A DNA stretch of 64,000 nucleotides, taken from Rhynchopus sp. YZ270_cl-10 (taxonomy: Eukaryota). Shown one piece after another: positions 6,833-62,645 of this stretch (position 1 is its first letter; each line of letters begins with the position of its first letter). The notes beneath the pieces were generated by a model, which was not told the origin of the DNA, searched no databases, and saw only the letters and a program-made list of their open reading frames with translations. The position numbers were made by a program, and so were the translations under genes. Location of the stretch: positions 496,001 through 560,000 of the forward strand of contig OZ037834.1 in assembly GCA_964035575.1 (NCBI GenBank), in the 5' to 3' direction.

Positions 6833-9800
6833 ATGTCGACACGCAATGGCGTGTACGTGCCTCAAATGGTATGCAATTTGTCCGTCTTTTTTTTTTTTTT
6901 TGATAAATTGTTGGAGTAGTGTAGTTGCCCCAGGTTGTGTTGCCACAGTTGTGCAACCTCTCTACTGTTTTTCTCATTATGAATCTAATCATTTTGACGG
7001 GGACGACGCTGGTGGAAAACCCCATCTTTCGATTGAAAATAATATCTTAATCATTTTGACTGAGAGCAAAACACACATCAGATGTAAAACCACGAAATGA
7101 TTTCTAGGACTGCATGCTTCGGGAATGCCCCCCCTCGGTACACCCCGGTTATTTGTACCAAAAAAAGTACACTGTTCACTGGACTGTTTGGATTTCATCT
7201 ACATCTTCGTTGAGAAAATTTTCATAATGTTCGACCTTTTTTTACGAACCTTATTCCGAATATGGTATCTGATAGACCTTTAGTATGCTTACCGCTTTTG
7301 TCAAGATCGAATGAATTTGTTAATTGAGGTCAACGTTTTTTTTGTGTCTTTTCATTATACTGCCACCACAGCCCGCCTTCCAGCCCGCCACTGACGACGC
7401 TGCGAAGGCCAGCATGCTGAGCCAGGCTGTTACCGAAAACGACCACTTCTCCTTCCCCGCAGACCGCGACTTCTGGAACAACTTTGTCACCCAGGTTCGG
7501 ATGTACCCCGGCGCCATGAACCACCCTCAGTTCCATGTAGACGCTTCGCACACCGATGAGAGCGTTCTGGTCAACCAGGAGTTCATGCGGCGCTTTGTTG
7601 CTGGGTGGCAGAATGCGAATCCTCACGTTGTGACGATCAACTCACCGCAGGGGCAGGCAACGTTTCATAGCAGCGAAGACTTTTGGAGTGGGTTTGTTAT
7701 GTTAGCTGGGGAACGGAGCCGGGCACGTGCTGCGAGAGGCGAAGGTGGTCTGGAGGACTACACTGTAGCATCCTCCAGACATCCCAACCAGCCACCAATC
7801 CGCACCACCGCAGCCGACTGGAACGAATACTGCCACGACTGGGACGCGAAGCTCCAGCAGCCTCCACAAGAACAGTTCTTCCAGCCCTCCCCCATGGCCG
7901 TCCGTGAACCTGAGCCAGTCATGGCGATGCCCATGCCTGTAGCCCCCATGCCCCAACCAGACCCTATGGTACCTCAATTAAAGGCACAGCTGGAAACCCA
8001 AAGACAACAACTCGGAAATGCAGTATGTAAAAAAAAACCCCTTTTTAATGATGTTCATGCGATGTACCTCGTTACCCAAGGGTATCGGGTGATGGATTTT
8101 TTGCAAATTCCGGATTCATCGGGTATTACCAAGGATGGTGCAAAAAAGTACTCAAAAAGTGCGAATCACCCCAGCCACACCAGAGGAGGGGTTTTATTTA
8201 AAACCTGGTACGGAAAATACCCGACATTGGACGGTATTACCTAATGAAAGATTAAAAAAAAAACCCCCCTGGTAATTCTCACCCCCTCTCTTCTTATACA
8301 CAATCCCTATTAGACTGCGCAAATCGATGGTACCCGCCGGCAAGCCGAAGAACTGCAGCGACAACTGAACAACATCAACCACCAGGCACAACTCTCTTCC
8401 TCACAGCTCCAGGACGAACTTCGCAGAGCGCAGGGCGAGGCACAGCGCAATGCCACTGATGCTGAGGCTCTCAGAGTATGACAAAAAAAAACATTCTTCC
8501 TTTACAAACAGCCCCCCTTACCCTGAACAACAGCTCTCTCTCTCTCTCTGAGGAGGTCCGTAAAATGTAGGTGAATATGGGTTTTAAACCGATGGCTCTT
8601 TTGAAACCGACATTTTCAAGGTGTTTTTCAAGGTGACTAATCACGAGAGAAGCTTAAGATCATCTTATAAACTTTTCTTTTCTTTAGATACACTACGAGA
8701 GGGCTTTGTATTTTCAGCTCTTATTTCTACTTTCCTTCCGACATTTTAACCCTCCTCATCTTACATTTTCAAACCTTCTTTTTAACTCTTTTGTAGGACG
8801 CAAACCGCAAGCTGCATGGAGAAAGGGATGGGCTTGCGTCACGTGTAAAGAAGCTTGAGCATGCGTTGACCACATTGCAGGGGGACATGCAGAAACAGCG
8901 TGACATCTGCCACAAGGAGCTGGCCCAGAAGGAGCGGGATATGGAAGAGCTGCAGCAGCTTGCAGACCTGGCGGACCTGAAGAAGGAGCTGCAGATGCGC
9001 GAGCTGATGCAGGAGGAGCTCTTCAAGGCAAAGGAGGAGGTGCAAAGGGAGGCTGACGAGAAGTGCCGCATCGACCTCATGAAGCACGAAGCCAAGAATA
9101 TGCGTACACAGCTCTGCTACAAACAGCAGGCGCAGAACCAATGCCTCCAACAAAGACCACAATGTGTGCCCCAATGTGGCCCGCCTGCAATTCATGTATG
9201 TTTTTTTCTTCTATTTTTGGTGTGTTGACCCTCTCAATATACTTTCAATTCTGTGAACTGAAAATGAATGTATTCTATTTTTCAACGGAGGAAAAAAAAA
9301 GACAAATAAAAATGGAAAAATGTTAGTGTTGTTTTTAGTGTGTTTCGGTTATACGTTATTAGAAAACTGATCATAAGCGTGGTTAACCCTTTATGGACCA
9401 CGGCCGTATTTTGCGTTTTGCTATGATTGTCTCTCACATAGGTAAAATGAGATCCGATGCATATTTTTGATCGTACCTGGCCGCAATTGAAAGATTTTGA
9501 GCAGATCTTTCAAATGGAGCAGAAATCGAAATAAAATGAGAAAAATGGAAAATGGAAAATTGAGGAGAGCTGATATTTTTTCCTGAAAATTTTGAAGAAA
9601 AAAATTATTCCGGCTGCGCACCTGTTTTTTCGGTATTCGAAAATGGCTTTATTTGAAAGATCGGTTCAAAATCTTTCAAAAGAAAGAAAAATCGATCAAA
9701 AAGTCCTAGTAGATAATGTCTCACTGCATGGAGAGAAGGTACCAACCAGCTAAATATACCGTAATTGTACAGAGGTTGGACAGTACAAAAGTTGGGGCTT

Positions 9801-10989
9801 TTGGGGCTTTTGGCCAACTTGGCCTGGTGTTGAACGCCGCATCCCCCGCACATGTAATCTGCTTTTAGCCGCCTGTTTCCCAAGCAAGAAGAAGTTGTCG
9901 ACCAACACCCTCCTGCCAGTGTCTCTGTACCTTGACTGTGTTGATACAGCTTCTTTTGTACAATGTCCCCCAAAAGACAAAGGGCAATAAATACACGGAG
10001 AAGAGGCACAGCCAGTTCAGGGTCAGGAACTGCTACGACGAGTGTTACTTTGCCCGGTCGCAGATATTTTCCATTATTTTAGTTTTGTTCTGAAAACCGT
10101 ACAAAATGGTTCCCTTCACACCAAAGTTTGAATCCTCTGATGACTCAAGCTCGCCAGAGTAGTTCATTATTCCCAAAATATACCCGAAAAAGTCGAAAAT
10201 TTGGAAATGCCTCGATTTGGTGACAGTGTATGAGAGTGTCAAAATAAATTGAATCTTGCTTCTTTGGAAAGATTTCACATCAAATCTTTCCACTAAAAAA
10301 AAAATCGCTGAAAAAGTCCGAGTAGAAGCCATGTTAAGCATTTTCGTGGATATATATATCCTCTTGGTCCATAAAGGGTTAACACAATATATTTGTCTTT
10401 TTACGCTCCTTCATTCCCTTCCCCCCCTCACCCATTCTTTGCCACTCAAGGCAAAAATTCCTCAAAGCCTAAAATGGCTGCGCTCAACCAAAAAAAAAAG
10501 TTACTCTTAAGGGTTGAGGATGATCTGCGTCTATACCTTCTGTAGTACATAGGCTTCGGCCGACATTGAGTACAGATCGTTATACCAGTAGGTATAACGT
10601 GATTGTCGATACAACAAAAAAGGGTGACTAGATTACAGAACAGTTTGCCATTCTATTTCTCTCTCTCCCCTCTCATTTGATTATTTTTTGTCTTATTTTC
10701 CCTTTTCACACAGTTTGCGGGTCAGCGAACGGTTGCGACGCAGACGGCTCCTAAGGCACGCCCTCCGATGTGTTTCCCAATCAGGGACGGCCCGACGTCC
10801 CCTGTACACGCAGCGTCCCTTCCGTATCCACAGATCCAGTACGGAGGGGGAGGTGACGGCGGCGGTGGTGGTGGTGGCTTCACCTCACCCACCTTCGGAG
10901 GAGGTGGTGGACCACGTTCCCCACCCCACTCCAACCCACCTCCCGGGCATACTACAGCCTATTCTCACGGAGGTCCCCCGCGATGGTGA
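6833..10989 (+). CDS. Unknown coiled-coil, Q/P/G-rich protein, ~507 aa; exons 6833-6868, 7372-8022, 8314-8475, 8797-9195, 10714-10989
   Basis: Four phase-0 GTATG...AG introns join five coding-like segments into one open frame (MSTRNGVYVPQM|PAFQ...LGNA|TAQID...EALR|DANRK...PAIH|FAGQ...PPRW*). Exon 1 is the least certain. Confidence 0.75.
8631..8685 (+). repeat. Short hairpin repeat family A (~50 nt). Others at ~21934, 28162, 28763, 35990, 36329, 37101, 40521, 61410, 61760, 61893
   Basis: Consensus AAGGTGACTAAGCAC(A/G)GAGAGGCTTAGG(T/A)TCATCTTATAAACTTTTCTTT, with stem CTAAGC/GCTTAG. Confidence 0.85.
9387..10378 (-). mobile_element. piggyBac-like deletion derivative (992 bp) in intron 4 of the coiled-coil gene
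   Basis: TTAA on both sides. 14-bp TIR CCCTTTATGGACCA / TGGTCCATAAAGGG. Minus-strand Cys-rich remnant (CIYC...YMCGGC...LLYC) across frameshifts. Confidence 0.9.
10500..10621 (+). repeat. Structured RNA-like repeat family D (~120 nt). Others ~36768-36883, 39735-39849, 41795-41895, 62290-62416, partial 22337-22380, 59031-59072
   Basis: Conserved linkers GGGTT.AGGATGA.CTGC.TCTATACCTT, TACA(A)GA and GTGATTGTCGA, separated by hairpins of variable sequence. A-rich tail. Confidence 0.85.
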
Positions 10990-12769: not shown

Positions 12770-12925
12770 TTTTTTTTTTGCGCGCCTGCTGCCATCCTTA
12801 GATGTGGTAGCCGTGTTCTGGTGCTCCCTCTCCGGAATCGAACCCTAATTCCCCGTTACCCGTTACAGCCACGGTAGTCCACTACACTACCATCAAAAAA
12901 GCTGATATGGCAGATACTCCTGCGG
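12770..12925 (-). pseudogene. 18S (SSU) rRNA gene fragment
   Basis: Reverse complement reads ...CTGCCATATCAGC...GATGGTAGTGTAGTGGACTACC...ACGGGTAACGGGGAATTAGGGTTCGATTCCGGAGAGGGAGC...CGGCTACCACATCTAAGGATGGCAGCAGGCGCGCAAA, the conserved eukaryotic SSU 5'-domain block. No flanking rDNA. Confidence 0.9.
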
Positions 12926-13217
12926 GCTTTGCACCAGATCAAGTCTTTGTGTTCTATCGCTCGGTTGACCTGTTTCATCCAAAGAACCACTGCTATTGCT
13001 AGCGTCGCTGCGGAGCAACACCCACAACATCACCCCCAAAGAAAATCATCTTACAGTGCTACACACCCACATAAAGGCACCCCCCCTTCCCTGACAAAAA
13101 CCAAAAAAGACCAAACATCAGTCTTGATTGGTTGCTTGGCAGCTTCTCTCCCCCCCCTTCCCCCCCTTTTTTTTTTGTTTTCTTAAGTAACCCCGAAATC
13201 GAAAAGAAAAAGACAAA

Positions 13218-16149
13218 ATGTCAGCAAAACAAGGTGTGGTGGAGAAGATGCTCCAGAAGGACAGAGCAATCCCTGATGTCCCACCACCGAACTGGGAGCC
13301 GTTACCGAGGAACAAGGTATGGATCAGACATATTTTATTTAAAAATGACACAACAGACCACCATATCATGGGCACACTACTAGTTTTTTTTAAAGGGACA
13401 TGCAGTGTAGTGGGGGAATAAACTAGTAGATGCTTCAACGCAACAAACGAACAACAACAGACACAAGTAACTTTTTGGAGGAAAGTGGTACTACTAAGTC
13501 ATAACGACTCAGTGCTAAACTCTACCAATAGATCTCATAGAACTATTCATAAAAAAACAAGCACTGTTTGCTTGACCTACTATTCATTTGAACTAAGTGT
13601 TTTGAAGCACTACTAGTAGTCCCCCCCCCCTCTGACTATTCTGCTGTGGTTACAGTCCCGCCTCTAATTAGTGAATTTCTAATTTATAAATTCGACCAAA
13701 TCTGAAAATATTTAATTAGCGACTTTATAAATTAGAACGTCACTAATTAAGATTTTATAAATTAGCTTGTCCACCCAAATCCCAGTCTGAATCTCTACAA
13801 GACTATCTGCATCTTTCTCTCCGACCATCATGTCTGTCTCCACCACGGAATGAACGGAAAAAATGAAAGAAATATGCCGAAGATGTGACCATCGTCGAGC
13901 AGGCTGTCCTCACCGCCCCGGAGATTGTCACCATCACAGACAACGCCATGGCGGATGACAGAGAAGTTGAAAGTGCCAGCCTCACCGTTCATCGGCGGAC
14001 GCAGGCACTGATGACAGACCGCACGCTGATGTGATGGCGTGGTGGAATGACGCTCACCCAGGACGCCATATTTCTGCTCCCACCATCTCCAAGTACAAAA
14101 CCCACAAAAAGAGAGCGGTTCGTACTTCACCCAAGGCTCTTTTGAACCCCGAGGAGCTGAAGAGGTTTCTCAACCTTACGGGGATGACCCGCAAGTTCAA
14201 CAGCCAACCGATTTGCGTCGCTTGCGAGGGGGATGGTGGTGAAGACGAGGCGGGACACGCCTCGGTGTAACCGACTCCTGGTGCCAGGTCTTTTCATCTC
14301 GTGGGCGAAATAGACCATGGAGGTGAACGGCATGCGCGTCCGCACAGCCACCACCGACCGCACCGTTTTTTACCTCCGTGTATCACTGATTACACACCTC
14401 CTTTTCCACATATTCCTCCAACAGAACCCGCACAAACCCGTCGTCACTTGTGCAGGCAAAAAAATTTTTTTCGGCTCCGCCGGGGAAAATAAATTCAATA
14501 ACTTAGTATTCCCCCCCGAAAAATAAATTAATTCACGACTTTATAAATTAGAACGTCACTAATTAGGATTTTATAAAATAAAACGCTATTAATAATAGGC
14601 GGGACTGTAACATTTTCTCTCTCTTCTATCATAATTTTATCTTCTTTTTTTGTTCTCCTTTTTGTCAGGTATTCGACAGCAAAAACATGCCCATTTTGGC
14701 AAATCTGAAGGCACATTTCTTGAAGGAAGGCCTCCTCGCAGAACGGGACGCAGCAGAGCTGGTCAACCGCGCCGCAACGATTCTGAGAAAAGAACCGAAC
14801 CTGCTGCGTCTGAACGACCCTATCACCGTCTGCGGCGACGTGCACGGCCAGTTTTACGATCTCTGCAAATTGTTCGAAATCGGAGGCGATCCGCACGACC
14901 AGCAGTACCTCTTTTTGGGCGATTTTGTGGACCGTGGGTGCTTTGGGTGCGAAGTGGTGTTTTATTTGATGGCAGTTAAGCTGCGACACCCGGACACCTT
15001 CTTCATGCTCCGTGGCAACCACGAATGCCGCCACTTGACCGCATACTTCAACTTCAAAGCAGAATGCCTTTACAAATACAGCCAAACGACCTACGACCAG
15101 ATCATGTCCTGTTTCGACTGTCTCCCGATTGCCTCTGTTCTCAACGGAAGATTCCTTTGTGTACACGGCGGGTTGAGTCCTGACATCCGTAATGTTGAGG
15201 ACATCAACGCTATTCATCGTTTCAGGGAACCGCCATCTTCAGGACCTATGTGCGATCTGCTCTGGAGCGACCCCATGGACGAAGAGGAGGAAGAGTATTC
15301 CCCAGAGGCCCTGTACGTGCACAACGACCTGAGAGGGTGCTCCTATGTGTTCTCGTACAACGCGGTGTGTCAGTTCCTGGTGAACAACAACCTGCTCTCG
15401 GTGATTCGTGCGCATGAAGCCCAAGATGAAGGGTACCGTCTATACAAGAAATCCTCCACAGGGTTCCCGTCAGTGATCTGCATCTTCAGTGCGCCCAACT
15501 ATTGTGATTCGTACGACAACAAGGCAGCGATCATCCGTTTCCAGAACAACCTGATGAACATCAGGCAGTTCAACAGCAGCCCCCATCCGTACTACCTCCC
15601 GAACTTTATGAACGCCTTTACCTGGTCCATGCCGTTCGTTGCAGAAAAGGTATGAGGCATTCTTTTTGAAAATACTGGTGTGGCTGAAAGGGGGTGCTAC
15701 TTTCTGCTATATTCTGCTATTCTGGGCATCTGTATTTTTTGGTGTGGCTGAAGGGAGGTGCTATTTGTGCTACTTTCTGCTATTTTGGGGTCGTCAGCCA
15801 CACCATGAATCTAATTCTTTGTTAACCCCCTTTACCACAGGTGACCGACATGCTCATCACAATCTGGGATCTGGTGAAGGAATCCGAACAGGAACAAGAA
15901 GACAAACTGCAGGAACGGGGTCAGCACCTCAAGAACAAGATCATGGCAATGGGCAAGATGGCAAAGATCTTCAAGACATTGAGAGAGGAGAACGAGTCAG
16001 TTGTTATGCTGAAGGGGCTGGCAGGGGGGCAGGTGCCGGTGGGTGTTCTGCAACAAGGCCCTGATGCGGTCAAAGCATCGATCTGTTCCTTCCAAGGCGC
16101 AAGAACGATGGACCGTGGAAATGAAAAACGCCCCAATTTCCAGGGATAA
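13218..16149 (+). CDS. CNA: Calcineurin A (PP2B catalytic subunit), ~462 aa; exons 13218-13316, 14669-15649, 15841-16149
   Basis: GDVHG, GDFVDRG, LRGNHE, SAPNY; CnB-binding [16 protein letters not shown]; CaM-binding [22 protein letters not shown]; autoinhibitory [16 protein letters not shown]. Splicing restores [14 protein letters not shown]. Confidence 0.95.
13653..14607 (+). mobile_element. Tc1/mariner/pogo-like deletion derivative (955 bp) in calcineurin intron 1
   Basis: TA|CAGTCCCGCCT ... AGGCGGGACTG|TA. Subterminal repeat GACTTTATAAATTAGAACGTCACTAATTA near both ends. Internal decayed frame with CVAC...RSFHL (PHD-like). Confidence 0.85.
15676..15805. mobile_element. TGGTG...CACCA MITE (compound copy) in calcineurin intron 2. 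Clean copies of the same subfamily: 58704-58780, 63886-63958
   Basis: TIR TGGTGTGGCTGA / TC(A/G)GCCACACCA. Clean copies have 5-bp TSDs TATAT and ACTTC. Confidence 0.85.
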
Positions 16150-19412: not shown

Positions 19413-19619
19413 CACGACGGTGAAGTATAGTACATTACAAGTGAAGTTACATGTAACGTTACAAGTGAAAAACCGTTACAAGTGAGTTACAAGTGGGATA
19501 CATGAATTACAGGCAAAATCAGGTTGTAACTGGTGGGTTACAAGTGAGTTACATGTAACAAAAGTTACATGTAACTCACTTGTAACTCCACTTGTAACAC
19601 CCGTTACTTCACCGTCGTG
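19413..19619. mobile_element. CACGACGG-ended MITE. Relatives 20179-20319, 37166-39008, 59949-60153
   Basis: TIR CACGACGGTGAAGT or CACGACGGGACCCAGTGAC. 2-bp flanks TA, TA, TA and AA. Interiors made of (T/G)ACAAGTGA / ACATG repeats. Confidence 0.9.
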
Positions 19620-20977
19620 TACACTCAGAGATTTATACACCATAGTAGAACTGAGGCTGAACCTCACTTTTGAAAAAAAAAAAAAACTTTTGCAGATTTC
19701 GGGAACCCTCCCTGGGCAGTACAACGATGATACTTCAATCTTAAGTTCATTTCTTCCAAAAAAAGCCCCTCCGTGCCTCCAGCCCCCTCAGGAACAGCAA
19801 CCTCACTTTTTTTGCACTTTTGGTAAGGAAAAAAATCGTATATAATAGCCTGGCTACACTACTACAAAAAAAAAAAAAGAAACGGACAAAAAAAAAAAAT
19901 CTTTTCAACACAACAAAAGCAAAAAAAAAAGCAAGCAAAACAAACAAAATAATAAAAACACTCACATCTGGTCCCCAATTATCTGTGTTCCCATTTATCC
20001 TCATTCTTTTCCTCTTCCCCCCTTTCCCCCTTTCCCCCCATCCCGCCCCTTTTCCTAAAAAGAGATACTTAAGAAAACTTTAATATGCAAGGAGAAAATC
20101 GATGTTTTTTTTGTACTGTGCTGGTTTTTTTTGTGTGCACATAGCAGACTACTCAGGGGGTGACTACTAGTAGTGTTACACGACGGGACCCAGTGACAAG
20201 TGAAAATGACAAGTGAAAAAGGTGACAAATAAATCACTTGTCATGACAAGTGACTTTTTTGAGTGACAAGCGACAAGTGAAATGACATGTGATTTCACTT
20301 GTCACTGGGTACCGTCGTGTACTAGTCCTAATGATGAATCTAACAACATCTGAATTTCACGACTCCTTTTACTATGTCATTAGCTAGAGTAGGTAGTTCC
20401 ACTATACAGGTGGCCTCGAGACCGAGGATATAAAGGTAGATCGCTGAGGGGCAAAAAAATGTGGGGAAAATATCGCAACATTTTTCTTTTCCCCAAACAC
20501 CCCGCAAACCCGCAAACGCAAAAATCCAAAAGGCGCCCTGCAGGGACAGGCAGTGTTGCTGGACTGCTTGCAGAGGACGTCGTCATGACGGGGGTCACCC
20601 TCGATAATGACGTTCGTCATGATGCCTTATAACGCCCTTACGAGACCACCATGTAGTGCTGCCCCTGACTAGTCTGTCATGAAATCAAAGGGTAGGTAAG
20701 AGCAAAGGGTGAATGAATACATGATGTTTTGCATTCATGATTTCATTTTTTTTTTTTTTTTTCTTTTTCTTCTTCTTTTCCCCCCCTTTCCCCCCGCCTT
20801 CTTCTCAAAAGAAATGAGAGTCTTGCGTATATCCAATGATATCCACAAAAACCTCTTCTTTTCAAAAAAAAAAAAAGTTCAAAAAAAAGTGTCATTGAGG
20901 ACTACCGTCTTCAATCTACCGACAGAAAAAAAATGGGGGGTTTTAGTTTTTTTTTTTTTTTTTTTTTGAAATTTTGT

Positions 20978-21600: not shown

Positions 21601-21735
21601 ATTTTGTGCAGGCTGTGAGCTTTAATTCATTTTTCCAGCCATGGTGTTGTGGTAGGGTCCATGCACCACAAAAAAGGTACCACTGATATAAGAGGGATTT
21701 ATAACCCAAGTAACAGAACATTGCTCTCCTGGGGG

Positions 21736-21868
21736 GTAATGGTGGCAGTATTGTGATGGAAGCCCATTGGAATACGCAAAAATACATCAAAATACATCAC
21801 AATACACGTGCATTGTGATGTATTTTGCGTATACCAAATGGCACCCATCACAATACTGCCACCATTAC
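21736..21868. mobile_element. Near-palindromic MITE (~135 bp), second copy ~22512-22646
   Basis: GTAATGGTGGCAGTATTGTGATGG ... CCATCACAATACTGCCACCATTAC. Confidence 0.85.
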
Positions 21869-22931
21869 TGGGGGGGTTTGATAACATGAAGGACATTGCG
21901 TCCCCTGGTGTCTCGGAGAGGGCGTTGTTATTAAGGTGACTAAGGACAGAGAGGCTTAGGTTCATCTTATAAAACTTTTCTTTTTTATTTGCACATAACA
22001 GCTTCACATTTCATATTTCAAGTCGTAAATATTCTTTAATCTAGATGTTCTTGCTTTGTACACAAAAAAAGGTTATATTTATGGTGAAAAATACACAAAA
22101 TCTTCCCCCCCCCAAAACTGCCCCACAAAAAACCTTGCACTCAACAAGACAAAAATACAGAAGCAAAAACGGCAAATAAAAGCAGAAGGAATCTTAAATA
22201 GGAAAAAGGAAACAAAAAAAAATGCAAAGAGTTTTGTATAGAGTAGTATTCTTTGGGTGACTACGCTAATACAGACTTTCAGTTTTTCAAAAAAACTAAA
22301 AAAAAAAAGAGAGAGAGAGAGCGGACGGCTTTATGTTTGTACAGAACCCGTCCTCGTACATTGTGATTGACGATACTATTAAAATAAGACAAAAAAAAAA
22401 AACAACAAAAAAAAGCTACAAAAATATTACAAAAACAAAGTACCCGCCCAAATCCCTTTTTCCTTCATATCACTATCTATCTAGCGTTCAGGTTCCATAC
22501 CTTCACCACCAGGGTAATGGTGGCAGTATTGTGATGGGGACTCCATTGGAATACGCAAAAAATACATCAAAAATACATCACAATGTATTTTGCTGTATTT
22601 TTGCGTATTCCAATGGGCTTCCCATCACAATACTGCCATCATTGCCACAGGGGGTCCTGTTTCCTCTGCATCTGGAGAGATGACATTATCCCTGACAACT
22701 CCGTTTGTGGAAGACATGGATGATTTTTCCTCCTCTTTTTTGGTCAACAAAAAAGAGGAGACGACGTTGGACAAAACTTCATCTTTCGATTGAAAATGGT
22801 ATCTTAATCATTTCTTCCGTGTACACCACCACCACTCACAACGCAGGGGCATTCATTGGGGATATATTATTGACTTTTGTTTTTTTTGTTTTTTTGTGCT
22901 ACACACAACGCAAGTCCTGCAGTCCAGCACA

Positions 22932-25900
22932 ATGCGCGCACTGCTGCTGCTCTCCATGTCGGTGGGGGTGCTCTCCGTCTCTCCAAGCTTCGACACGTCG
23001 CAAGCATCGCTGATCCAAAAGGAGTTTGAAGCCTTTGCCTCTGCCAACGGAGGACGTGGCGTGAAGCTTGTGATCGGAAACGCAAAGACAGGAGAACAGC
23101 AGGTGTTCTCTGCAGGAGATGCGTCGAAGGGAACACCTGTGTCGGAGAAGACGATCTTCAGGATGGGTGGGATGACAAAGGTGATGGCAGGGATGCTGAC
23201 TGCAATCGCATTTGAGGAGGGTGTGGTGAAGCCGACAGACGCAATTGCGAAGTTTGTTCCTGAGCTGGATGCGGCAGGTCTGAAGGCTGTGAGCTCGCAG
23301 GGAGGTGTGACGGTGACGTCGCCGCTGAACAGGAACTTCACGTTCTGGGACTGTCTTGGCATGAAGTGTGGGTTCAGCTACTCACACTGGGGTATGGGCA
23401 CAATGCGTGAGGCTTCCACCATTTCCCCTGCTGATGGTGTGTTCCCCCTTCTCACCAAGAACAAGTGTGCAGGTGCGTACACAACTGCACACGGAGGAAA
23501 GCTGATCCGCGAAGCTGCTTGGCTTGAGTGCAGAAAGCAGATCCCACTTGTGTCGCAGCCAGGACAGCGTTCGTACTACGGATACGACTACGACGTGATT
23601 GGTCTTGCTCTGTCGCGTGCGTACAAGATGAACGCAGAGGAGCTGATGCGGACGAAGATCTGGAGCAAGCTTGGAATGGACTCTGCCTTCATGAGCTGGC
23701 TGCCACAGGGCACGTCCCCGAGTGGTGATGTTGCGGACCTGCGCTTCACGGCACCTGGTGGCTCTGCTTACACCTCTGGATTTGCACCGAGCAACATGCC
23801 TGCAGGAAAAGACCTGTGGGCCAGTGAGGTGAAGACGTGGGACCAGGACATGTGGAACTTGATGGGACCCTTCAAACACGAGACCTCAGCAGATGCAAAG
23901 TACCCAGGTGTGTCTGGGTTTGGTGAGGGTGCCATGATGACGTTTGAGGACTACGCGAAGTTCCTTGTTGCCGTTGTGAACAAAGGGACTTCTGGGAATG
24001 CAACAATCATCTGCGAGACCATGTGGCAGAAGTTCACGAACCCCACTGTCCTGAGCACAGAGGGCATGCGCGCGAACCCCTCCGTTGGCTACCTTGAGGA
24101 AGGGAGCGACTTCTCGAAGCAGAGCGAATGGAAGTATGTCCACACTTCCCCCCCACACTACGTAGGTGATAACCCACCCCACGTCAGTACATACATCTCA
24201 AAGATGTTATAACCGCCACTTCATAACCTTCACCCTTGTGTTTTGTTTTGTTGTTGATTTTCTTGTACTTGGCGGAAATTGAGTGAAACGTTGGAAAAGG
24301 TTTTCAATGGATTCAATGGATGGAAAAGGTTTTCAAAAAAACCTGTGACAAAAAAAAACACCACCTCACAGATGGGGCTTTGCTGGGAGGAGAGGTGGCA
24401 GCGTGGCAAAGAGAGGCAGCCCGCAGTACCCATTCTTCTCTGAGGCGTCTGGCACGACAGGAGAGTGGCAGGGTGTCTTCGGCACCATGTTCAAGGTATG
24501 GTGCTTGGCTTTGAGTGGAGTCTTGAGAGAGGAGTACAGCTCAGTAGACGCTCTCTGCAAGTCCTTGGAAAAGTTCTCGTTTTTTGCCATGTGCAGAAAA
24601 AACAGTTTGTCTGTGCATACCAATGCACCACACACTAGAACGGTACTTGATTGAGTCACAGAACAGAATCACTTCCTTCTTGAACGCATTGAAACGACAA
24701 AACACACAAAACAGTTTGACTTCGAAAGCGGCATCTACGGTGTGGGAGGAGAGAACACACTGCCCTCGCAGAGTGGTGTGGACCAGGCAGGTGCACGGTT
24801 TGTGAAGGAGCACTTCAGCCGCTGGGCATCGCAGCTGTACCGAGGTGACGCTGTGCAGGCACCTCCAGCAAAGGAGGACGCGTTCGATGCCACTGTGCTG
24901 AAGGAGATCCAGGACGAAGTCACACAGTGGTCCAACGCAAACGGTGGGTGGGGTGTCAAGCTTGTGGTTGGAAACACAAAGTCTGGTGGCAGCCACACAA
25001 TCCAGGCGGGAAAGGCGTCGAAGGGAACACCTGTGTCGGAGAAGACGATCTTCAGGATGGGTGGGATGACAAAGGTGATGGCAGGGATGCTGACTGCAAT
25101 CGCATTTGAGGAGGGTGTGGTGAAGCCGACAGACGCGATTGCGAATTTTGTTCCTGAGCTGGATGCGGCAGGTCTGAAGGCTGTGAGCTCGCAGGGAGGT
25201 GTGATGGTGACGTCGCCGCTGAACAGGAACTTCACGTTCTGGGACTGTCTTGGCATGAAGTGTGGGTTCAGCTACTCACACTGGGGTATGGGCACAATGC
25301 GTGAGGCTTCCACCATTTCCCCTGCTGATGGTGTGTTCCCACTTCTCACTGCTGACAAGTGTGCAGGTGCGTACACAACTGCACACGGAGGAAAGCTGAT
25401 CCGCGAAGCTGCTTGGCTTGAGTGCAGAAAGCAGATCCCACTTGTGTCGCAGCCAGGACAGCGTTCGTACTACGGATACGACTACGACGTGATTGGTCTT
25501 GCTCTGTCGCGTGCGTACAAGATGAACGCAGAGGAGCTGATGCGGACGAAGATCTGGAGCAAGCTTGGAATGGACTCTGCCTTCATGAGCTGGCTGCCAC
25601 AGGGCACGTCCCCGAGTGGTGATGTTGCGGACCTGCGCTTCACAGCACCTGACGCCTCTGCTTACGCCTCAGGCACAACACCGAGCAACATGCCTGCAGG
25701 AAAGGACCTGTGGGCCAGTGAGGTGAAGACGTGGGACCAGGACATGTGGAACTTGATGGGACCCTTCAAACACGAGACCTCGACAGATGCAAAGTACCCA
25801 GGTGTATCTGGGTTTGGTGAGGGTGCCATGATGACGTTTGAGGACTACGCGAAGTTCCTTCATGTGCTGTCGAACAAAGGTGTTGGGAGCAACGGTGTGC

Positions 25901-28365
25901 GTCTTGTGAAGGAGAGCACGTGGACGTGGTTCATGTCTCCCGTTCAGGAGGCTGCTGAGGGAATGTCCTCCGCTCCCGCAGTGTGCTTTGCATCTGCAAC
26001 AGGTGAGATGTCGGCCCAGGCACTTTGGAAGTGGGGCTTTGCGAGTCTGACGAAGGAGGCTGCATCCACAGAAGCAGGAGGTCCGTCCCCTTCACTGGCA
26101 CAGCAGGACACTGTTGCAGCTGGGCAGTGGAGTGGTGAGTTTGGAACGATGTTCAAGTTTGATGCTGAGGCAGGGGTGTACGGAGTGGGAGGAGAGAACA
26201 CACTTCCGGGACAGTCAGGCGCTGGGAGGAAGGGTATTGACTTCATCCGCAGCAACTACGACAGGTGGATGGGGAAGCTGGCTCGTGGTCGCCACACAAA
26301 GCCTGCACAGACTGTCGCAGACGTGCAGAAGTCGGCATCTGTGGTTGAGATCCAGAAGGAAGTGGAGGTGTGGTCGAAGAGCTTCGGACGTGGTGTGAAG
26401 CTTGTGATCGGAAACGCAAAGACAGGAGAGCAGCAGGTGTTCTCTGCAGGAGATGCGTCGAAGGGAACACCTGTGTCGGAGAAGACGATCTTCAGGATGG
26501 GTGGGATGACAAAGGTAATGGCAGGGATGCTGACGGCAATCGCATTTGAGGAGGGTGTGGTGAAGCCGACAGACGCGATTGCGAAGTTTGTTCCTGAGCT
26601 GGATGCAGCAGGTCTGAAGGCTGTGAGCTCGCAGGGAGGTGTGACGGTGACGTCGCCGCTGAACAGGAACTTCACGTTCTGGGACTGTCTTGGGATGAAG
26701 TGTGGGTTCAGCTACTCGCACTGGGGTATGGGCACAATGCGTGAGGCTTCCACCATTTCCCCTTCTGACGGCGTGCTTCCTTTCCTGTCGAGCAACAAGT
26801 GTGCAGGTGCGTACACAACTGCACACGGAGGAAAGCTGATCCGTGAAGCTGCTTGGCTTGAGTGCAGAAAGCAGATCCCACTTGTGTCGCAGCCAGGACA
26901 GCGTTCGTACTACGGATACGACTACGACGTGATTGGTCTTGCTCTGTCGCGTGCGTACAAGATGAACGCAGAGGAGCTGATGCGGACGAAGATCTGGAGC
27001 AAGCTTGGAATGGACTCTGCCTTCATGAGCTGGCTGCCACAGGGCACGTCCCCGAGTGGTGATGTTGCGGACCTGCGCTTCACAGCACCTGACGCCTCTG
27101 CTTACGCCTCAGGCACAACACCGAGCAACATGCCTGCAGGAAAAGACCTGTGGGCCAGTGAGGTGCAGACGTGGGACCAGGACATGTGGAACTTGATGGG
27201 ACCCTTCAAACACGAGACCTCAACAGATGCAAAGTACCCAGGTGTGTCTGGGTTTGGTGAGGGTGCCATGATGACGTTTGAGGACTACGCGAAGTTCCTC
27301 TCTGCGTTGCTGAACAACGGCAACACACAGACAGAGAAGCTTCTTGGCGACGCGATGCTGCGTGCGATGGCTGGGAGCACAACAAGCGAGGACACGGGTC
27401 TGGGTGCCACCCCTGCGGTGCCGTTCGTTGGCGACGAATACGCATCGACCACCGAGTGGAAGTGGGGCTATGCACACACCACCACCGGGGAGGGCTGGAG
27501 CGGCGAATTCGGCACCGTCTTCCGCTTCAACCGCGAGACGGGCGACTACTTGGTGGGTGGCGAGAACACTCTACCTGCACAGGCAGCACGCCACCATGCG
27601 AAGGAGTTCATCCTGGCCAACGCACAACGCTGGACTGGCATGCTCCGTTGTGACACCACAAACAACTTTGTCGCCCCGAACGTTACCAACGGCACAGAAC
27701 CCCTCACTACCACTGAGGGCTCTGGAGATGGAACCACTACGGGTGGCGCAGCAAACGAGGAAGGTACCAGCTCAAGCAGCGGCGCTGGCGCGTGGTTCTT
27801 GATCCTTATTGTGGCTGCCAGCACGCTGCTGCTGTGCACTGCAGCAGGCATCTTCATGCTGCAGAACATTAAGGAACAGCGCCTGCACCTCTCCGACATC
27901 GGCAACATCGAGGACGAAATCATGCAAGAAGACGTATGTAACCCATCTTCTAACACAGACTCTTTTTTTTAGCAACTGTGGACGAATGGTTGCTCTGCAC
28001 TGTCGGAGGATATACTGTACCACTTCCAAATAAAGTAGTCAAATTACCCGTAAAAGGACCAGATCCCCAAAACTTATTTGGAGAATTTCTGTACCTGGAA
28101 ACACTTGACAACAAACTTGTGGAAAACCAGCGCTGCTGATGCTCCGTGATAACGAATATGATAAGGTGACTAAGCACAGAGAGGCTTAGGATTATCTTAT
28201 GAACGTTTCTTTCTTTTCAACCTCTCTTTCCCCCTTAAGTACCCTATCCACACCCCCTCTTAACAACAGTCGAAGGAGCTTCAAGAACCCCACGAGTCTT
28301 TGACTGACTACTCTGGCGGCAGCATGAGCCGTTCCCAGGGGCCTGGGCAGGAGTTTTCGCTCTAA
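22932..28365 (+). CDS. Type I membrane protein with 3 beta-lactamase/EstB-fold (serine hydrolase) domains, catalytic Ser->Gly, ~1546 aa; exons 22932-24133, 24372-24495, 24715-27933, 28270-28365
   Basis: Signal peptide MRALLLLSMSVGVLS. Each domain has KTIFRMGGMTK, PLVSQPGQRSYYGYDYDVIG, IWSKLGMDS and W(Q/S)G(V/E)FGT. T/G/S stalk, TM AWFLILIVAASTLLLCTAAGIFML, tail ending EFSL. Introns 1-2 are supported by alignment to the intronless domains 2 and 3. Confidence 0.9.
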
Positions 28366-29710: not shown

Positions 29711-29833
29711 TGGTGTGATTCAGGGGGTACGCACAACCCACGGAAGTACCACGGAGAACTGTTTCGGGTTATATTAAGATTTGCGGAGCACCTTCGGGGG
29801 AACCACGGAGAATCCGTTTGGGTGATCACACCA
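29711..29833. mobile_element. TGGTG...CACCA MITE, subfamily 2 (123 bp). Interrupted relative at 62582-63360
   Basis: TIR TGGTGTGAT / ATCACACCA. TSD ATTAT. Confidence 0.85.
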
Positions 29834-36203: not shown

Positions 36204-37165
36204 GATTTTTTTTCTCTCTCAAATTGATTTTTTTTTTTTTTTTTTGAAAAGTTATGTTTTTTTTTTCCAATTATTTCAAAGTTGCAATTTCTTTCATTTT
36301 TCATTTTATTTTTTTTTCTATTCTTTACGGTGGCTAAGCACAGAGTGGCTTAGAACCAGTCAAAAACAATCCTTCCTTCCACCCCTCTCCCCCCTTCTTA
36401 TCGCGTATCCCTCAAGGTTGTACCATAGTATCAATCATTTTCCCCGTTCCCCTCTGCTTTTTTAAAAAAGTTTTTGCCCCGAGAGTGAGATGATTTATCA
36501 CAAGAGTTATGCAAAAAAAAAAAGACAGTGGAGATTTGCACGAACTGTGGCAACACAACCGAGGCAACTACACTACAACAATTTATCAAAAAAAAAGGGG
36601 GCACGTTTTTCCTGTTCAGTAAATCCCCCGCTTATGTGTATACAATGGTGAAGTAAATGGATTGGTTTGTGGTTTTGTGGTTTCACCGTTGATTTAAAAT
36701 GATGAAATTACAATTAAGGACCATGTGTTTTCTCTAAGACAAAAATTTCAAAAAAAAAAAAAATACAAAATTCTCGGGTTAGGATGAACTGCATCTATAC
36801 CTTTGAAATTCCTCTAGCCTTAGAGGGTCGTTGTGCACAAGAACCCATCCTCAGATAGGGTGATTGTCGAAAACTACAAAAAAGCAAAAAAAAGCCAAAC
36901 ATTAAGTATGTATACTAACTCATGCGGGGGGGTATATAGACTGGAGTACCGTGCTTTTGCAATAACACACTTCCACTTAGATGGGGGAAGTGTTTTGTCT
37001 CACCGTAGCAAAACTAAAAGAAAAAAAGAAAATGCGCCATTTCCCCCTATTTTTCCCCCAAATGGAGCAATCGTTCAAAACTGTTTTTTTTTTCTTCTTC
37101 AAGGTGACTAATTATAGGTTCATCTTATAAACTTTTCAGAATGTAAATCACGAAAATGGATTGTA

Positions 37166-39323: not shown

Positions 39324-40689
39324 TACCAAAAAAAAAAAGCAAGGGTACATTTTCCCCCTTTATGTCTTTCTTTTCGTTTAGAAAAGAATGTATGTGAAAT
39401 AACTTCTTTTTGCTCTGCTGAAGGGGGAAGGGGGGGAAGCCAACTATAGAGCTTTTCCCCACCCCGTATCGTATCCCTTGGGAGATGACTGGCTTGTTAC
39501 CTGCAATGCTGTCTATCTCTGAGATTTGTCTATTTTTTTTTATATACGACACCCCCCTTCATTGCAACACAAGAGCATTTATTTTTTGTTCGGTTGGTAC
39601 ACTCTTCACGAGAGGGCTTTTGTATTTCAACACTGCTTTTTTTCTATTGATGTTTTTGCGTGACTACTCCCCCTTCCCACTTCCCCGGTTTCCCCCCAAT
39701 ATTCCAATTGCACGACAGAAATACAAAAAAAAAGTAATTTCTTTGGGTTGAGGATGATCTGCATCTATACCTTTGAAATTCATTAGCCTTCGGGCGACTT
39801 TGTGTACAAGAACCCGTCCTCGGACAGGTGACTGTCGAAACTACAAAAACGTCGTGACTGAACTTTTGGAAAAGTAGAGATTGCACAATTGTGGCGACAC
39901 AAACCGAGGCAAACTATACTACAACAAATTTATCAAAAAAAATTTTGGAAAAAAAAAGCAAAAAACCTCCAAAGAGATAGAGACAGGAAGAAATTCATAT
40001 GTAGAAAGTCTTTCCGCAGCAGTAGCGATTGCTAGAATTTAAAAAAAAAGGAAAAGGTATCTCTCTCTCTCTTTTTTTTAAAGATTGGATTCCTCCCTTC
40101 AACGCTGCTTCTACGTTACTGCCCTTCTGTGTCTCTGTTTTGAGTTTTTTTTTTTTTAAATATCCCCCCTCCCCCAGGTCAGCACCACCCAAACACTCCG
40201 GGGGGGGGGGTTCCCCTGATACCCCACGGTGTGTCAGTGCCTGCGTTTGCCAAGGTGTTTTGCATTCTCACCTTCACCCCTCTTATTTTTCGATTTTTTT
40301 TTTCCTCTACTTTCTGTGCCAAAAAAAAAGAGCGCTTCTCTCCAGACACACTCTCGTTTAAAGGATTATTAAAAGGACAATGAAAGTGTGGGTCGTGCGG
40401 TATACAAACATATTCTCCTTCGGGTTGACAAATTGTTTAGTATTTGCACAGCGAGCAGCCTTCTTTTTTGCACTATTTTTTTTTTCCCTCCTAATTTTAT
40501 CCCCTACCCCCTTTTATAAGATGACCCGAGAGAGGCTTAGGCCCATCTTTACAATCTTTTCATTTTTTTTTTTTAAATTTGGTGATATCCTCAATGTGTG
40601 TTTTTCTTTATGTCCGGACAAAAAAAAAAACTATCTTTTTGGCGGTTATAGTGGAGGACACTCTAGGGTGGCTACACTAATACAACCAA

Positions 40690-41708: not shown

Positions 41709-43289
41709 GTATGATTTCTTTTTCCCTCTTTTTTCCTTTATCATTACTTTCACTCTTTTTTGCGTGTATTTCAACTCAGCTATCTTTTTAAAAATCTATA
41801 CCTTCCGTAGTACAAAAAGGCTTCGGCCAACATTGAGAACAGAACCTTAGTCAACCCTACGTGGGTTCTTCGGTGATTGTTCGACACAACAAAACAAAAA
41901 AAAAAATTACAAAAAGACACCACCCTTCCCAAACTATTCCATTATTTTACTTCAAAACACACACTCCGGGGTTTGATAGCCCACGGAGCACATCAGTGGT
42001 GTCGTGACGTCCTCGAGGAGGGCGGGCTTTGCACTTCCGATTTTTTCCCTCCCTCCCTCCCCTCCCCCACTTTTCAAATCCCCCCACCTTTTTTTCCCTC
42101 AACTGCTGACTAAACAGAGAGAGAGGTTTTCACCATTTCAATCTCTCTCTCTCTCTTTTTTTTGCTGGGTACATTTAGTGCACCCTATTATACCATCTAT
42201 TCAGTAGAATAGTTAGTATATGAAACAATTTTTTTTTGCTGTTTTTTGTCTTTCTTGTTGTTATTCTTTTGACTACTTTTGGAAACCAAACAAATATTAT
42301 CCGCCTCTTCGTCTCTAAACAACAATCCTCCAGGAAAACTATCGTCTTTTTTTTTCATTGAACGTCAAAAAAAAGGGTGTCTGCTTTTGGCGGTGAGAGG
42401 GGAATTTCTAGGAAATACTATGTTGTAAAGAGATCTTGGGGTGGCTTCTAAATTTGCTGGTTTTTAATCACGCTTTTTTGTGTTGGGGGAAAAAAAAAAA
42501 CCTCGGTCACAAAAAAAAAGGAAAAAGTTTGGAATGTTCAGTTGTTCAGTGCATAATGTTATACCACATACAACAACGTAGTGTGGTTGAAGCTCGCATA
42601 TTACACCAGGTCAAGATTTGTGTTAATTATTGGTAGAGAGGGGTTTTTTTTTCATCCGTCATATTCGATTGTGATCCCCCTTTTTTGCCTTATGAACACA
42701 TTGTGAAGATTTTGTAAAGATTTGCGCTTCGATCATCGCTTCAAAAGTGGAAAAAAAAAAATACTCGGTTTCTTCCGAACAAAAAAAATATTGTGTAAAA
42801 GAGAACAGAACTTTCACAGGGGGGGTGTCAGTGTCACTACACTGCTCTTCCCCCCCCAAAACCAATTTATCGGAAAACTACAACAGAGTTTTCAAAATAA
42901 AAAAGGAATAGTATTTTGCACACCTTCATGCTTCCCACACACACACCTCCCGATTTATTGTACCTCTTCTCTTTTTGTTCGAAACGGATGGACTCTTGAT
43001 TCTGGAGTCTGGAGCTTCAATGATCTCCGTTCATCTGATGATAGATGATGAGAGGAAGCGGGAGTAACGCATATCCGGTATATTCCTTGAAATGGATAGT
43101 AGGACCATGGTTGGGGGAGGTCCACATCCCCACGGTGCACCCGCTCATTTGTAGCAAAAGGTGCACTGTTCACGGGAGGGATTTTTTTTTTGTATTTCAA
43201 GTCAATTTTTGGCTCCACACTCCACTTATCACACCTACCATCCTTCCCTGCAGGACAATCCTCTACAACACCCCCCTTTTTTTCTCAAA

Positions 43290-60536: not shown

Positions 60537-62645
60537 TCCCCCCCCCTACTTTCCCACTTCTCCCGCTGTCTCCCCGTTCTTCCCGCTACGTTTATTTTCT
60601 TTTATATTACGGCTTTTTTAGCGGGTGTGTTTCTAGTACAGGTTTGCTCTAAGCAAGAGTAAAAGCTTTGGTAGCGCCTCTGTCCAGTCCGCGTTATGGG
60701 GGAGGGGGTAGGGAGGGGGGTGAAAAAAAACGTATTCTGTTCACTGGTGAATTTTTTTTCTCCATCTGGGGATGGTTGGTGTTACATTCGACAACGAATG
60801 TAAAAAAAAGGGGGAGGGTTACTGGAATTGTGGGAAATATGGGGGGGGGGGAAAGTAGTATGTGTGTGTGGTGTGTGGGGTATTCTCAATTAGAACTAAC
60901 GAAAAAAAAAAAAGGAAAAAAATTGCAAACCATAATTTCAGCTGAGTGTTTTTCTCTCAACTCACTGCAGACTTCTTTTTCGCTGACCCTGTTTTTTGAA
61001 GGGTGCCCTTTTTTATATTTTATATCAGATCTAAACCACGAAATGGATTGTAGGACTGCATGGTTGGGGGGTGTCCACCACCCGGTGCACCCAGTTATTG
61101 TAGCAAAAGGTACACTGTTCATGAGAGAACTGTTGTATTTCAAGTAAAGTATTTTTTTTTTTAGTGATTTGGTACCCTATTTTTCTGTCTTGCAGTGCAA
61201 AACGAGACTTTTCTTTTCTCTTTTATTTTTTTTCTTATTTTTGCATGATTTTATTTTTTGAAAAAAATAGATGTCGTCGTGTTCCTCAGAGAGGAGTTCT
61301 CTTTTTGTCAAGAGGTAAAGATTTCTGAGCAAAATCAAATAAAAAACGAAACTTTGTCATCACGAACACATTGTAATTTTGTGGGAGCACATCCTTCGCG
61401 CGAAAAGCCGACGAGAGGCTTAGGGTCATCCTCCCAAAAAAAATCCTTTTTTATATCGAGATGTGAGTGCTAAACATGCATCTTTCAAGTATTTTTTTTT
61501 TTTGGTCATGTACCAAGGTACACTGTCACGAGAGGGCTTTGTATTTCAACTCTTTTTTTCTCTTCCGTCTTGTATCTCTCCTTCCCCTTTCCCTTCTGTC
61601 TTTTTCCTTGCGACGACATTTTTATGGTTTTTTTTTTGTCTGAAATTGATTGACCCCTTTTCACTATTGTGGGAAAGCTAATCTTCTGCAAATCTTCAAC
61701 GGAAAGGGTATATCTTCTTCCTGGCCACCCGATCACCCTCTTTTTTGTTTTATGTGAACAAGGTGACTAAGCACCAGAGGCTTAGGGTTCATCTACAAAC
61801 CTTTCTTTTAAGAAAGTTGGGAACATTTTCCCCTATACCTATGCCAGCAATTTATTGAATGCATAGGTTGAAAAAAAATTGTTTTGTGTGTACAGGTGAC
61901 TAAGCCCAAAGGAGAGGCTTAGGTTCAACTCATAAGCAATTTATTGTTTAGAAGCTCTGAGCAAAAGTACAAGAGGGCCTAAGTATCTCATCACAAAAAA
62001 AATATGTTTCTGTTATTGGTGCTTTCGGAAGTCGGTCAACCCCTGTGTCAGCGACCTGTCAATATCGACCCCTCCCGAAGCACCAGTTATTTTTTTTTCT
62101 TTTGTGTGCGTGTTGTACCCATTTGGTGTCTTTGTAACCCTTCTCCTCCCCCCCTCTCGTTCTAGCGTTGTTCTGGCTGCCCTTATTTCTTCTCCCACTG
62201 TTTTAAACAAAAATTCTCTGTTCAACAAAATAATAAAAAATAGCACCTTGTTGCGGACTACCCCTTTGAAGGTTCTTTTTCATCCTAAAAGTTGCTCTTA
62301 AGGGTTCAAGACGAACGACGTCTATACCTTCCGTAGTACAAAAGGCTTCGGCCAACATTGAGTACAGACCCGAATTCTCCCACCTGGTGGGATTACTCGG
62401 CGATTGTCGACAAAAGAAAAGAGGGATTGTGACTGTGTCAGACCAATAATTCGCTTACCTTAGCAGGTTTGTTGATGTTTATTGTATTGACGAACAAAAA
62501 AAAATATGAAAAATGAAAAAAAAAAGACAACTGTATCCTGAAAAAACAACGCACATGATTTCAGGGAAAAAAATTAGGTTATGGTGTGACCACCCAAACC
62601 GATTCTCCGAGGTTCTTCCGTGGTTCTTCCGTAGGTACTCCGGTA

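What the first reader, a model, noticed from the sequence alone, without database searches (positions are those of the whole stretch)
10500..10621. Family D: a dispersed ~120-nt RNA-like element with clear structural covariation
Seen in 7 copies, all on the + strand. A C(UUCG)G hairpin covaries (GGC-TTCG-GCC at ~10552, ~41819, ~62344 vs GCC-TTCG-GGC at ~39787). The helix between TACAGA and GTGATTGTCGA changes sequence and length but stays paired (CGTTATACC/GGTATAACG, GTCC/GGAC, TCCCACC/GGTGGGA, CCTGC/GCAGG, AACCC/GGGTT). A small 5' hairpin uses G-U pairs. Linkers are near-invariant and four copies share a 5' end. Known: UUCG loops and compensatory changes indicate selection on RNA structure. 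Inference: an undescribed structured RNA motif, either a SINE/LINE 3' recognition element, a ribozyme or a small RNA. I could not match it to hammerhead, HDV, twister or U3.
Basis: partly seen in the sequence, partly recalled or inferred. Interest (0 to 1): 0.75.

Follow-up and report, generated by a model that had tools for sequence, protein, structure and literature searches.

The report
Structured A-tailed retroposon in a diplonemid
A 115-base repeat found seven times in this window and at hundreds of other places in the genome of what is likely a diplonemid flagellate is likely a small jumping element copied through RNA, whose predicted hairpins would be what the copying enzyme recognises, rather than a new ribozyme or cellular RNA.

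Summary
The repeat is real: 7 copies, all on +, 4 full-length and 3 lacking the 5' part. Public contigs show hundreds of loci and summed depth about 1,400-1,800 times the flanks for each of two subfamilies. Copies end at a fixed point followed by poly(A), and depth fades towards the 5' end. This is the anatomy of a SINE-like retroposon, in a host that is likely a diplonemid. A three-hairpin fold fits the copies, and 6 of 7 variable caps fold better than shuffles. But 'clear covariation' is overstated: 2 of 15 pairs change on both sides, 27 of 500 shuffles match the score, and whole-element z-scores are no better on + than on -. No Rfam family, tRNA, conserved Pol III box, hammerhead core or HDV-like fold was found. 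No reverse transcriptase remnant lies in the window. The + strand bias is shared by four other short repeat families. Verdict: an unnamed SINE-like family; partner LINE, promoter and parent RNA remain unknown.

The parts
10496..10621 (+). Full-length copy, subfamily A, inside a predicted GT-AG intron (9196-10713), about 90 nt before the 3' splice site
   Evidence: the flanking exons join in frame; splicing is predicted only
10501..10545 (+). H1: predicted long irregular hairpin (outer TTAC/GTAG, middle GGGT/ACCT, inner GGATG/CGTCT, 5-nt variable loop)
   Evidence: it is the lowest-energy fold in the other 3 of 4 full copies, but not in this whole copy
10552..10561 (+). H2: GGC-UUCG-GCC hairpin
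10566..10609 (+). H3: predicted 3' hairpin with TTG/CGA, ACA/TGT, facing GA/GA dinucleotides and a variable cap (10578-10599)
   Evidence: the lower TTG/CGA stem was set by hand
10610..10621 (+). A-rich tail; other genomic copies continue as poly(A) from this point
   Evidence: table 7: 44, 42 and 34 contigs in X1, X3, X4
62287..62423 (+). Full-length copy, A-type with a longer cap; 74% identical to 10500
39730..39851 (+). Full-length copy, subfamily B; 69% identical to 10500; followed closely by a copy of another short repeat (39876-39930)
36761..36884 (+). Full-length B-type copy with H2 replaced by a different hairpin; about 560 nt after the stop codon of a beta-lactamase-like gene
41795..41897 (+). 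5'-truncated A-type copy beginning right after TTTTT-AAAA
59031..59076 (+). 5'-truncated copy (H3 top and tail only), third cap type; about 470 nt after the stop codon of a kinase gene
   Evidence: the same cap joined to a B-like 5' half in one contig each of X7 and X9
22324..22386 (+). 5'-truncated, decayed B-type copy; its cap no longer folds

Best explanation
Family D is a ~115-nt non-coding repeat with a fixed A-tailed 3' end, 5'-truncated copies and at least two high-copy subfamilies, and it is likely a SINE-like non-autonomous retroposon, copied from its RNA by a LINE reverse transcriptase that would prime on the A-tail at A/T-rich targets. Shown: dispersal, high copy number (order of magnitude), A-tail, truncation, subfamilies, sense orientation, and sequences compatible with three hairpins. 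Inferred: RNA-mediated copying; selection on master copies for the fold, above all the 3' hairpin next to the tail, as the handle for the enzyme; and, since no internal Pol III promoter is conserved, a template supplied by read-through host transcription or by an upstream promoter at a few master loci. Not shown: the partner LINE, the transcript, target-site duplications.
For: Depth inside the element peaks at 1.5-1.7e5 in X1 against 80-105 in the flanks; ratios of 1,430-1,780 for A and B in X1 and X3, an order of magnitude only. In X1, 234 of 502 and 272 of 561 laid contigs fit only in part, and the flank-bearing contigs listed have single-copy depth (about 80-120), so the loci are many and dispersed. 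Loose ends behind the 3' end are poly(A) with mixed flanks (agreement 0.41-0.42) in 44/42/34 contigs for A (X1/X3/X4) and 64/57 for B (X1/X3). Depth near the 5' end is 3-4% of the peak against 41-47% near the 3' end, and 3 of 7 window copies keep only the 3' part. Head-to-tail joints occur (table 5c). Structure: 6 of 7 caps fold better than shuffles (0-60 of 2000). The H1 outer stem is TTAC/GTAG in A and ATTTC/GAAAT in B, and one H1 pair is seen as U-G, C-G and U-A. Among listed transitions at Watson-Crick pairs 10 keep a pair (G-U) and 3 break it, against 6 and 9 for the same classes at unpaired sites (one-sided Fisher p 0.055). An 18S rRNA piece ending in an A-run (12783-12968) suggests an enzyme that copies A-tailed RNAs here. 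D. papillatum has LINE-1, SLACS, R2 and jockey ORFs and about 3600 scattered 28S pieces (PMC10161547, passages). Stem-loops with compensatory changes mark the 3' ends of stringent SINE/LINE pairs (PMC3747384, passages).
Against: No unambiguous target-site duplication: the shared words at the edges are 5-9 nt and almost all A in 5 of 7 copies, TAGTG in one, none in one. No reverse transcriptase or endonuclease domain in 171 non-genic frames and 5 long ORFs; the rest of the genome could not be searched. Part of the 5' fall in depth may be 5' divergence among subfamilies. Of the 23 listed substitutions at paired sites, 11 keep and 12 break the pair when the partner is held fixed; linkage cannot be seen. 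Whole-element z-scores are -0.4 to -2.2 on + and -0.7 to -2.2 on - for the 4 full copies. The lowest-energy fold of the 10500 copy differs from the common model. In X9 the 2 contigs that pass the 3' end show no A-run. X1 may be the sample behind the window, so it is not independent.
Confidence: 0.72

Rival explanations
1. The copies are processed pseudogenes of a host small RNA (an unrecognised diplonemid snRNA, 7SL, snoRNA or rRNA piece); the fold belongs to the parent RNA.
For: Fixed 5' and 3' ends, ~115 nt, a UUCG loop and facing GA dinucleotides. rRNA pieces are scattered in this window and in D. papillatum (PMC10161547, passages). A resemblance to kinetoplastid U4 and 7SL is recalled only and comes from no call.
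Against: No Rfam hit on + at E up to 10 for three copies scanned singly other than a lncRNA match upstream of the element. No tRNA. C-box-like word in 3 of 4 full copies, no D box and no Sm site in any. Two subfamilies 69% identical, each with on the order of a thousand near-identical copies, do not fit one parent gene. Depth drops to single-copy level outside the element.
Confidence: 0.1
2. The element is a retroposon, but its hairpins arise largely from DNA-level template switching and CpG decay, not from selection on RNA.
For: The caps are perfect Watson-Crick inverted repeats that fold on either strand, and they are unalignable between copies. H2 of 36760 is replaced by a new perfect inverted repeat. 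3 of the 10 pair-keeping transitions at Watson-Crick pairs are at CpG. Covariation is borderline.
Against: The model holds 5 (A) and 3 (B) G-U pairs that exist only on +. The same H1 fold is the lowest-energy fold in 3 of 4 full copies that are 53-82% identical. H1 alone folds better on + than on - in 3 of 4 copies and about equally in the fourth. The UUCG loop is kept across a stem swap.
Confidence: 0.15
3. The fold is a self-cleaving ribozyme of a new class that frees the element from polycistronic pre-mRNA, as the HDV-like ribozyme does for L1Tc/NARTc.
For: A fixed 5' end without a recognisable promoter. All copies lie in the sense of host genes. Related kinetoplastid retroposons carry a ribozyme in their first 77 nt (PMC12278014, passages; PMC3383444 and PMC4035085, search listing only).
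Against: No match to Rfam ribozyme models. No exact CUGANGA on + in 4 of 4 full copies. No HDV-like fold in 0 of 8 strands by a home-made descriptor that had no positive control. The fold is three simple hairpins; the H1 loop varies freely, which speaks against a conserved pseudoknot.
Confidence: 0.07
4. The copies have been kept as cis-regulatory elements of host mRNAs, like Leishmania SIDERs in 3' UTRs.
For: 7 of 7 are in gene sense (p 0.016). Two lie 470-560 nt after a stop codon. SIDERs are about 4-fold enriched in sense (PMC2689281, passages).
Against: SIDERs are described as extinct and degenerate (PMC2323293, passages), while B copies are nearly identical (31 listed substitution rows, each at most 8% of the depth at its site in X1). 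Four other short families show the same bias: 13 of 14, 4 of 5, 5 of 5 and 10 of 10 on +.
Confidence: 0.06

Closest known systems
[quoted passage not shown]
   Same: Euglenozoan host, non-coding, A-rich 3' end, on the order of a thousand copies, mostly in gene sense (PMC2323293, PMC2689281, PMC12278014; passages).
   Different: About 115 nt against about 550 for SIDER; no HDV-like fold found at the 5' end; no 11-19-bp target duplication; subfamilies look young; no link to an ingi-like element shown.
SINE-like elements of unknown promoter (Entamoeba EhLSINE1/2, Chlamydomonas SINEX)
   Same: Short non-autonomous elements with no identified tRNA/7SL/5S head (table 1 of PMC3747384, passages); SINEX-3 ends in poly(A).
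   Different: Those have an identified LINE sharing the 3' tail; here the partner could not be sought.
Classical Pol III SINEs (tRNA-, 7SL-, 5S-derived)
   Same: Size, A-tail, 5' truncation, subfamilies, structured RNA.
   Different: No conserved A/B box and no similarity to tRNA, SRP or 5S models.
Dispersed 28S rRNA pieces of Diplonema papillatum
   Same: Thousands of short dispersed RNA-derived pieces in a diplonemid genome (PMC10161547, passages).
   Different: Family D does not match rRNA models and falls into divergent subfamilies with different caps.

Membership tests
SINE-like non-autonomous retroposon | Short, non-coding, dispersed in many copies | tested here: met
SINE-like non-autonomous retroposon | Fixed 3' end with an A-rich tail | tested here: met
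   (table 7)
SINE-like non-autonomous retroposon | 5'-truncated copies | tested here: met
   3 of 7 window copies; 5' depth 3-4% of peak, partly confounded by 5' divergence
SINE-like non-autonomous retroposon | Target-site duplication | tested here: inconclusive
   only short A-rich shared words
SINE-like non-autonomous retroposon | Partner LINE sharing the 3' tail | not testable with these tools
   no genome held; none in the window
Classical Pol III SINE | Internal A and B boxes | tested here: not met
   B-box word with 1 mismatch in 1 of 4 full copies, near the 5' end; A-box words only at a loose setting that also matches the minus strand (box patterns recalled)
Classical Pol III SINE | Head derived from tRNA, 7SL or 5S RNA | tested here: not met
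   a very divergent diplonemid parent RNA could be missed
RIME/NARTc/SIDER | 79-bp signature with HDV-like ribozyme | tested here: inconclusive
   no Rfam hit; descriptor negative in 8 of 8 strands, without a positive control; no direct alignment to the signature was made
RIME/NARTc/SIDER | About 12-13-bp target duplication | tested here: not met
   longest shared word 9 nt, A-rich, exact matches only
Box C/D or H/ACA snoRNA, U3 | Conserved C and D boxes, or H and ACA boxes | tested here: not met
   no CTGA on + in 4 of 4 full copies; B copies end in CTAC, not ACA; no Rfam hit
Known self-cleaving ribozymes | Match to the class model or catalytic core | tested here: not met
Known self-cleaving ribozymes | Self-cleavage in vitro | not testable with these tools
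   needs a bench assay

The most novel reading that the evidence does not exclude
A promoter-less, ~115-nt retroposon that lives on polycistronic pre-mRNA, whose three-hairpin fold is a new self-cleaving or processing signal that defines its 5' end and hands the RNA to a LINE enzyme, evolving through swappable hairpin caps.
Probability: 0.08. Interest if true: 0.85.

Novelty: new member of a known kind. Interest (0 to 1): 0.36.

Why it matters
[quoted passage not shown] A very short, young, high-copy retroposon with no recognisable promoter raises a testable question: how does such an RNA get its 5' end in a lineage with polycistronic transcription? Thousands of natural copies would make it a good set for covariation and for mapping what a LINE enzyme recognises. 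As it stands it is a lineage-specific repeat of a known kind.

Tried and rejected
No whole genome is held, so copies could not be collected genome-wide. No RNA holder was listed among 11 runs; this says nothing about expression. A pattern scan of metagenome contigs gave 21 matches; none scored better than E 0.16 with the family HMM and by eye they lack H1 and H2, so I treat them as chance. Viral contigs gave 0; prokaryote genomes were not scanned. Rfam: 1 hit at gathering level in the window (an SSU rRNA piece) and 35 at E up to 5, none on a Family D copy. Hammerhead, HDV, C/D, H/ACA, Sm site and Pol III boxes were rejected. A canonical kink-turn in H3 was considered and left open: the facing GA pairs are there, but by eye the adjoining canonical stem is poor. 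A pairing of the H1 loop with ACAGA exists in 10500 only and the loop varies freely, so it was rejected. A helix TCTGTA/TACAGA is broken in 62290 and by variants at 10541 and 10543, so it was rejected. Minus-strand polarity was rejected because truncated copies keep the + 3' end, and G-U pairs and UUCG are on +. A mitochondrial or rDNA source for the depth is not needed, since the listed flank-bearing contigs have single-copy depth, but it is not excluded. The variant 10560 C>G (41% of depth in X1) may be the GCC/GGC swap with its partner clipped; linkage cannot be seen, and it was counted as breaking. Literature: four motif words searched in full text gave 33 papers (30 listed), none on protist repeats by title; one was opened and held a primer. 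Topic searches listed no description of this element. Seven supplements of PMC10161547 lack the motifs; its Additional file 1, with the repeat and RNA sections, was too large to read and may bear on novelty. Earlier scan notes: nothing. The protein atlas did not resolve the lineage.

Full report
Host. The window is eukaryotic, with GT-AG introns and all recognised genes on the + strand. The calcineurin at 14687-15652 has its best named match in Diplonema papillatum (79%), a record with the prefix Hpha at 86% (I read this as Hemistasia from a table) and unnamed transcriptome records at 87-97%. A diplonemid host is therefore likely. No genome is held.

Observation. BLAST, nhmmer and a covariance model give seven copies, all on +: 10496, 22324, 36761, 39730, 41795, 59031 and 62287. 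The model was built from these copies; the next of its 19 hits is at E 0.25. Four copies are full-length and 53-82% identical; three keep only the 3' part. They fall into an A type (10500, 62290, 41790), a B type (39730, 36760, 22330) and a third cap type (59030). The 10500 copy lies in a predicted intron, 9196-10713, whose exons join in frame. Two copies follow stop codons by 470-560 nt and the rest are intergenic, so they are not a set of intronic snoRNAs.

Copy number and ends. I laid contigs of six of the 11 listed runs on one A copy and one B copy. In X1 the summed depth is 80-105 in the flanks and up to 1.7e5 inside. Ratios are 1,430-1,780 for both types in X1 and X3. The tool warns that this is no copy number, so I use it as an order of magnitude. 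More direct: 234 of 502 and 272 of 561 contigs in X1 fit only in part, and the flank-bearing ones listed have single-copy depth. Behind the 3' end the loose letters are poly(A) with mixed flanks in 44, 42 and 34 contigs (A; X1, X3, X4) and 64 and 57 (B; X1, X3). The few contigs of X6, X7 and X9 are less clear, and the two in X9 show no A-run. Loose ends before the 5' end are A-rich and mixed (agreement 0.5-0.6), so there is no sign of a common upstream extension, although the tables were cut (341 and 213 rows not shown). Depth near the 5' end is 3-4% of the peak and near the 3' end 41-47%. Divergent 5' ends may account for part of this. B copies are close to identical: each of 31 listed substitution rows is at most 8% of the depth at its site in X1, and one single-A deletion at 39808 is at about half, which makes TACAGA the common form in B as well. 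X1 may be the source of the window and X3 may be the same species, so these runs are not independent support.

Structure. One model fits the copies. H1 is a long irregular hairpin: outer stem TTAC/GTAG in A and ATTTC/GAAAT in B, an invariant GGGT/ACCT, and an inner 5-bp stem with a free 5-nt loop. H2 is the UUCG hairpin. H3 has ACA/TGT, facing GA dinucleotides and a variable cap, followed by the tail. For it: H1 is in the lowest-energy fold of 3 of 4 full copies; one inner pair occurs as U-G, C-G and U-A; 6 of 7 caps fold better than mononucleotide shuffles (0, 2, 6, 23, 47 and 60 of 2000; the decayed 22330 does not fold); the model has 5 and 3 G-U pairs that exist only on +. Against overstatement: on 15 alignable pairs only 2 change on both sides; 27 of 500 shuffles reach the covariation score and 188 of 500 the pair count; whole-element z-scores are -0.4 to -2.2 on + and -0.7 to -2.2 on -; caps were delimited after seeing them; 36760 has replaced H2. 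In the 45 substitution rows, transitions at Watson-Crick pairs keep the pair 10 times and break it 3 times, against 6 and 9 for the same classes at unpaired sites (p 0.055). Counting all 23 rows at paired sites, 11 keep and 12 break. The fold is plausible and probably selected, but it is not demonstrated.

What it is not. Rfam gives nothing on any copy in the whole-window scans or when three copies are scanned singly to E 10 (only weak minus-strand or flanking matches). ARAGORN finds no tRNA. There is no conserved B box, D box, Sm site or exact hammerhead core (patterns recalled). An HDV-like descriptor is negative on 8 of 8 strands but had no positive control. No mobile-element domain appears in 176 frames scanned against Pfam. 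The 21 metagenome matches are chance and viral contigs give none. Resemblances to kinetoplastid U4 and 7SL are recalled only and are not backed by any search.

Mechanism. A fixed 3' end with poly(A), loss from the 5' side, young subfamilies, head-to-tail joints and a start after TTTTT-AAAA in one copy are what target-primed reverse transcription leaves (established knowledge). I infer that a LINE enzyme copies the RNA from its A-tail and that master copies keep the fold, H3 above all, because it is recognised. Such 3' stem-loops with compensatory changes are described for stringent SINE/LINE pairs (PMC3747384, passages). An 18S piece ending in an A-run lies in the window, and D. papillatum carries LINE ORFs and about 3600 28S pieces (PMC10161547, passages and section 7). 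Target duplications are unreadable because both edges are A-rich. How the RNA is made is open: read-through of host transcription or an external promoter are both possible.

Strand. Seven of seven on + has p 0.016, but four other short families are 13 of 14, 4 of 5, 5 of 5 and 10 of 10 on + (the single minus hit of the first is an internal palindrome). The bias is a property of this region, as for SIDERs, which are about 4-fold enriched in gene sense (PMC2689281, passages).

Comparison and verdict. It works like the short non-autonomous retroposons of trypanosomatids (PMC2323293 and PMC12278014, passages) and like SINE-like elements of unknown promoter. It is not shown to be a member of the RIME/NARTc/SIDER group or a classical Pol III SINE. 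My searches found no description of it, but the main supplement of the D. papillatum paper could not be read. It is a new member of a known kind, with a small chance that the fold has a processing activity of its own. Interest 0.36.

Noticed in passing
window 12783-12968 (-): A piece of 18S rRNA followed by an A-run, likely a retroposed rRNA fragment.
   Followed up: partly
window 2040, 7080, 8686, 11095, 11425, 17576, 35876, 39006, 39595, 43076, 43717, 61026, 61511 (+): A second ~120-nt family, 13 copies all on +, that keeps its 3' part in short copies but ends in a T-run instead of an A-tail; several lie in introns. The copy at 35876 begins with a hammerhead-like CTGATG...CGAAAC arrangement by eye, most copies lack it, and Rfam gave no ribozyme hit.
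   Followed up: partly
window 8632, 21935, 28165, 28765, 35990, 36329, 40526, 61411, 61762, 61895 (+): A ~40-nt hairpin family, 10 of 10 on +, also ending in T-rich sequence. Its 3' end and that of the family above are the reverse complement of the AAAAGTT start of Family D type A, perhaps a shared target word.
   Followed up: no
window 1280, 6961(-), 12441, 36535, 39876 and 16180, 17329, 28515, 40649, 59076: Two further short families (about 65 and 35 nt) sharing start and end words; the longer one has an A-tail. One copy of each sits just behind a Family D tail.
   Followed up: no
window 59019-59031: Just upstream of the truncated copy lies a near inverted copy of its cap, which may be a 5' inversion made during insertion.
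   Followed up: no
window 22900-35840: Two tandem sets of genes with repeated beta-lactamase-family domains (Pfam PF00144) and a predicted C-terminal hydrophobic segment.
   Followed up: no
window 44780-53800: Three tandem genes for a cysteine-rich repeat protein with no Pfam match in the one copy scanned.
   Followed up: no
window 19425-19620, 20175-20320, 21735-21868, 22513-22646, 59949-60153: Several palindromic elements with terminal inverted repeats, likely MITE-type DNA transposons.
   Followed up: no
window 37434-38917: Three near-identical tandem copies of a ~480-nt unit.
   Followed up: no
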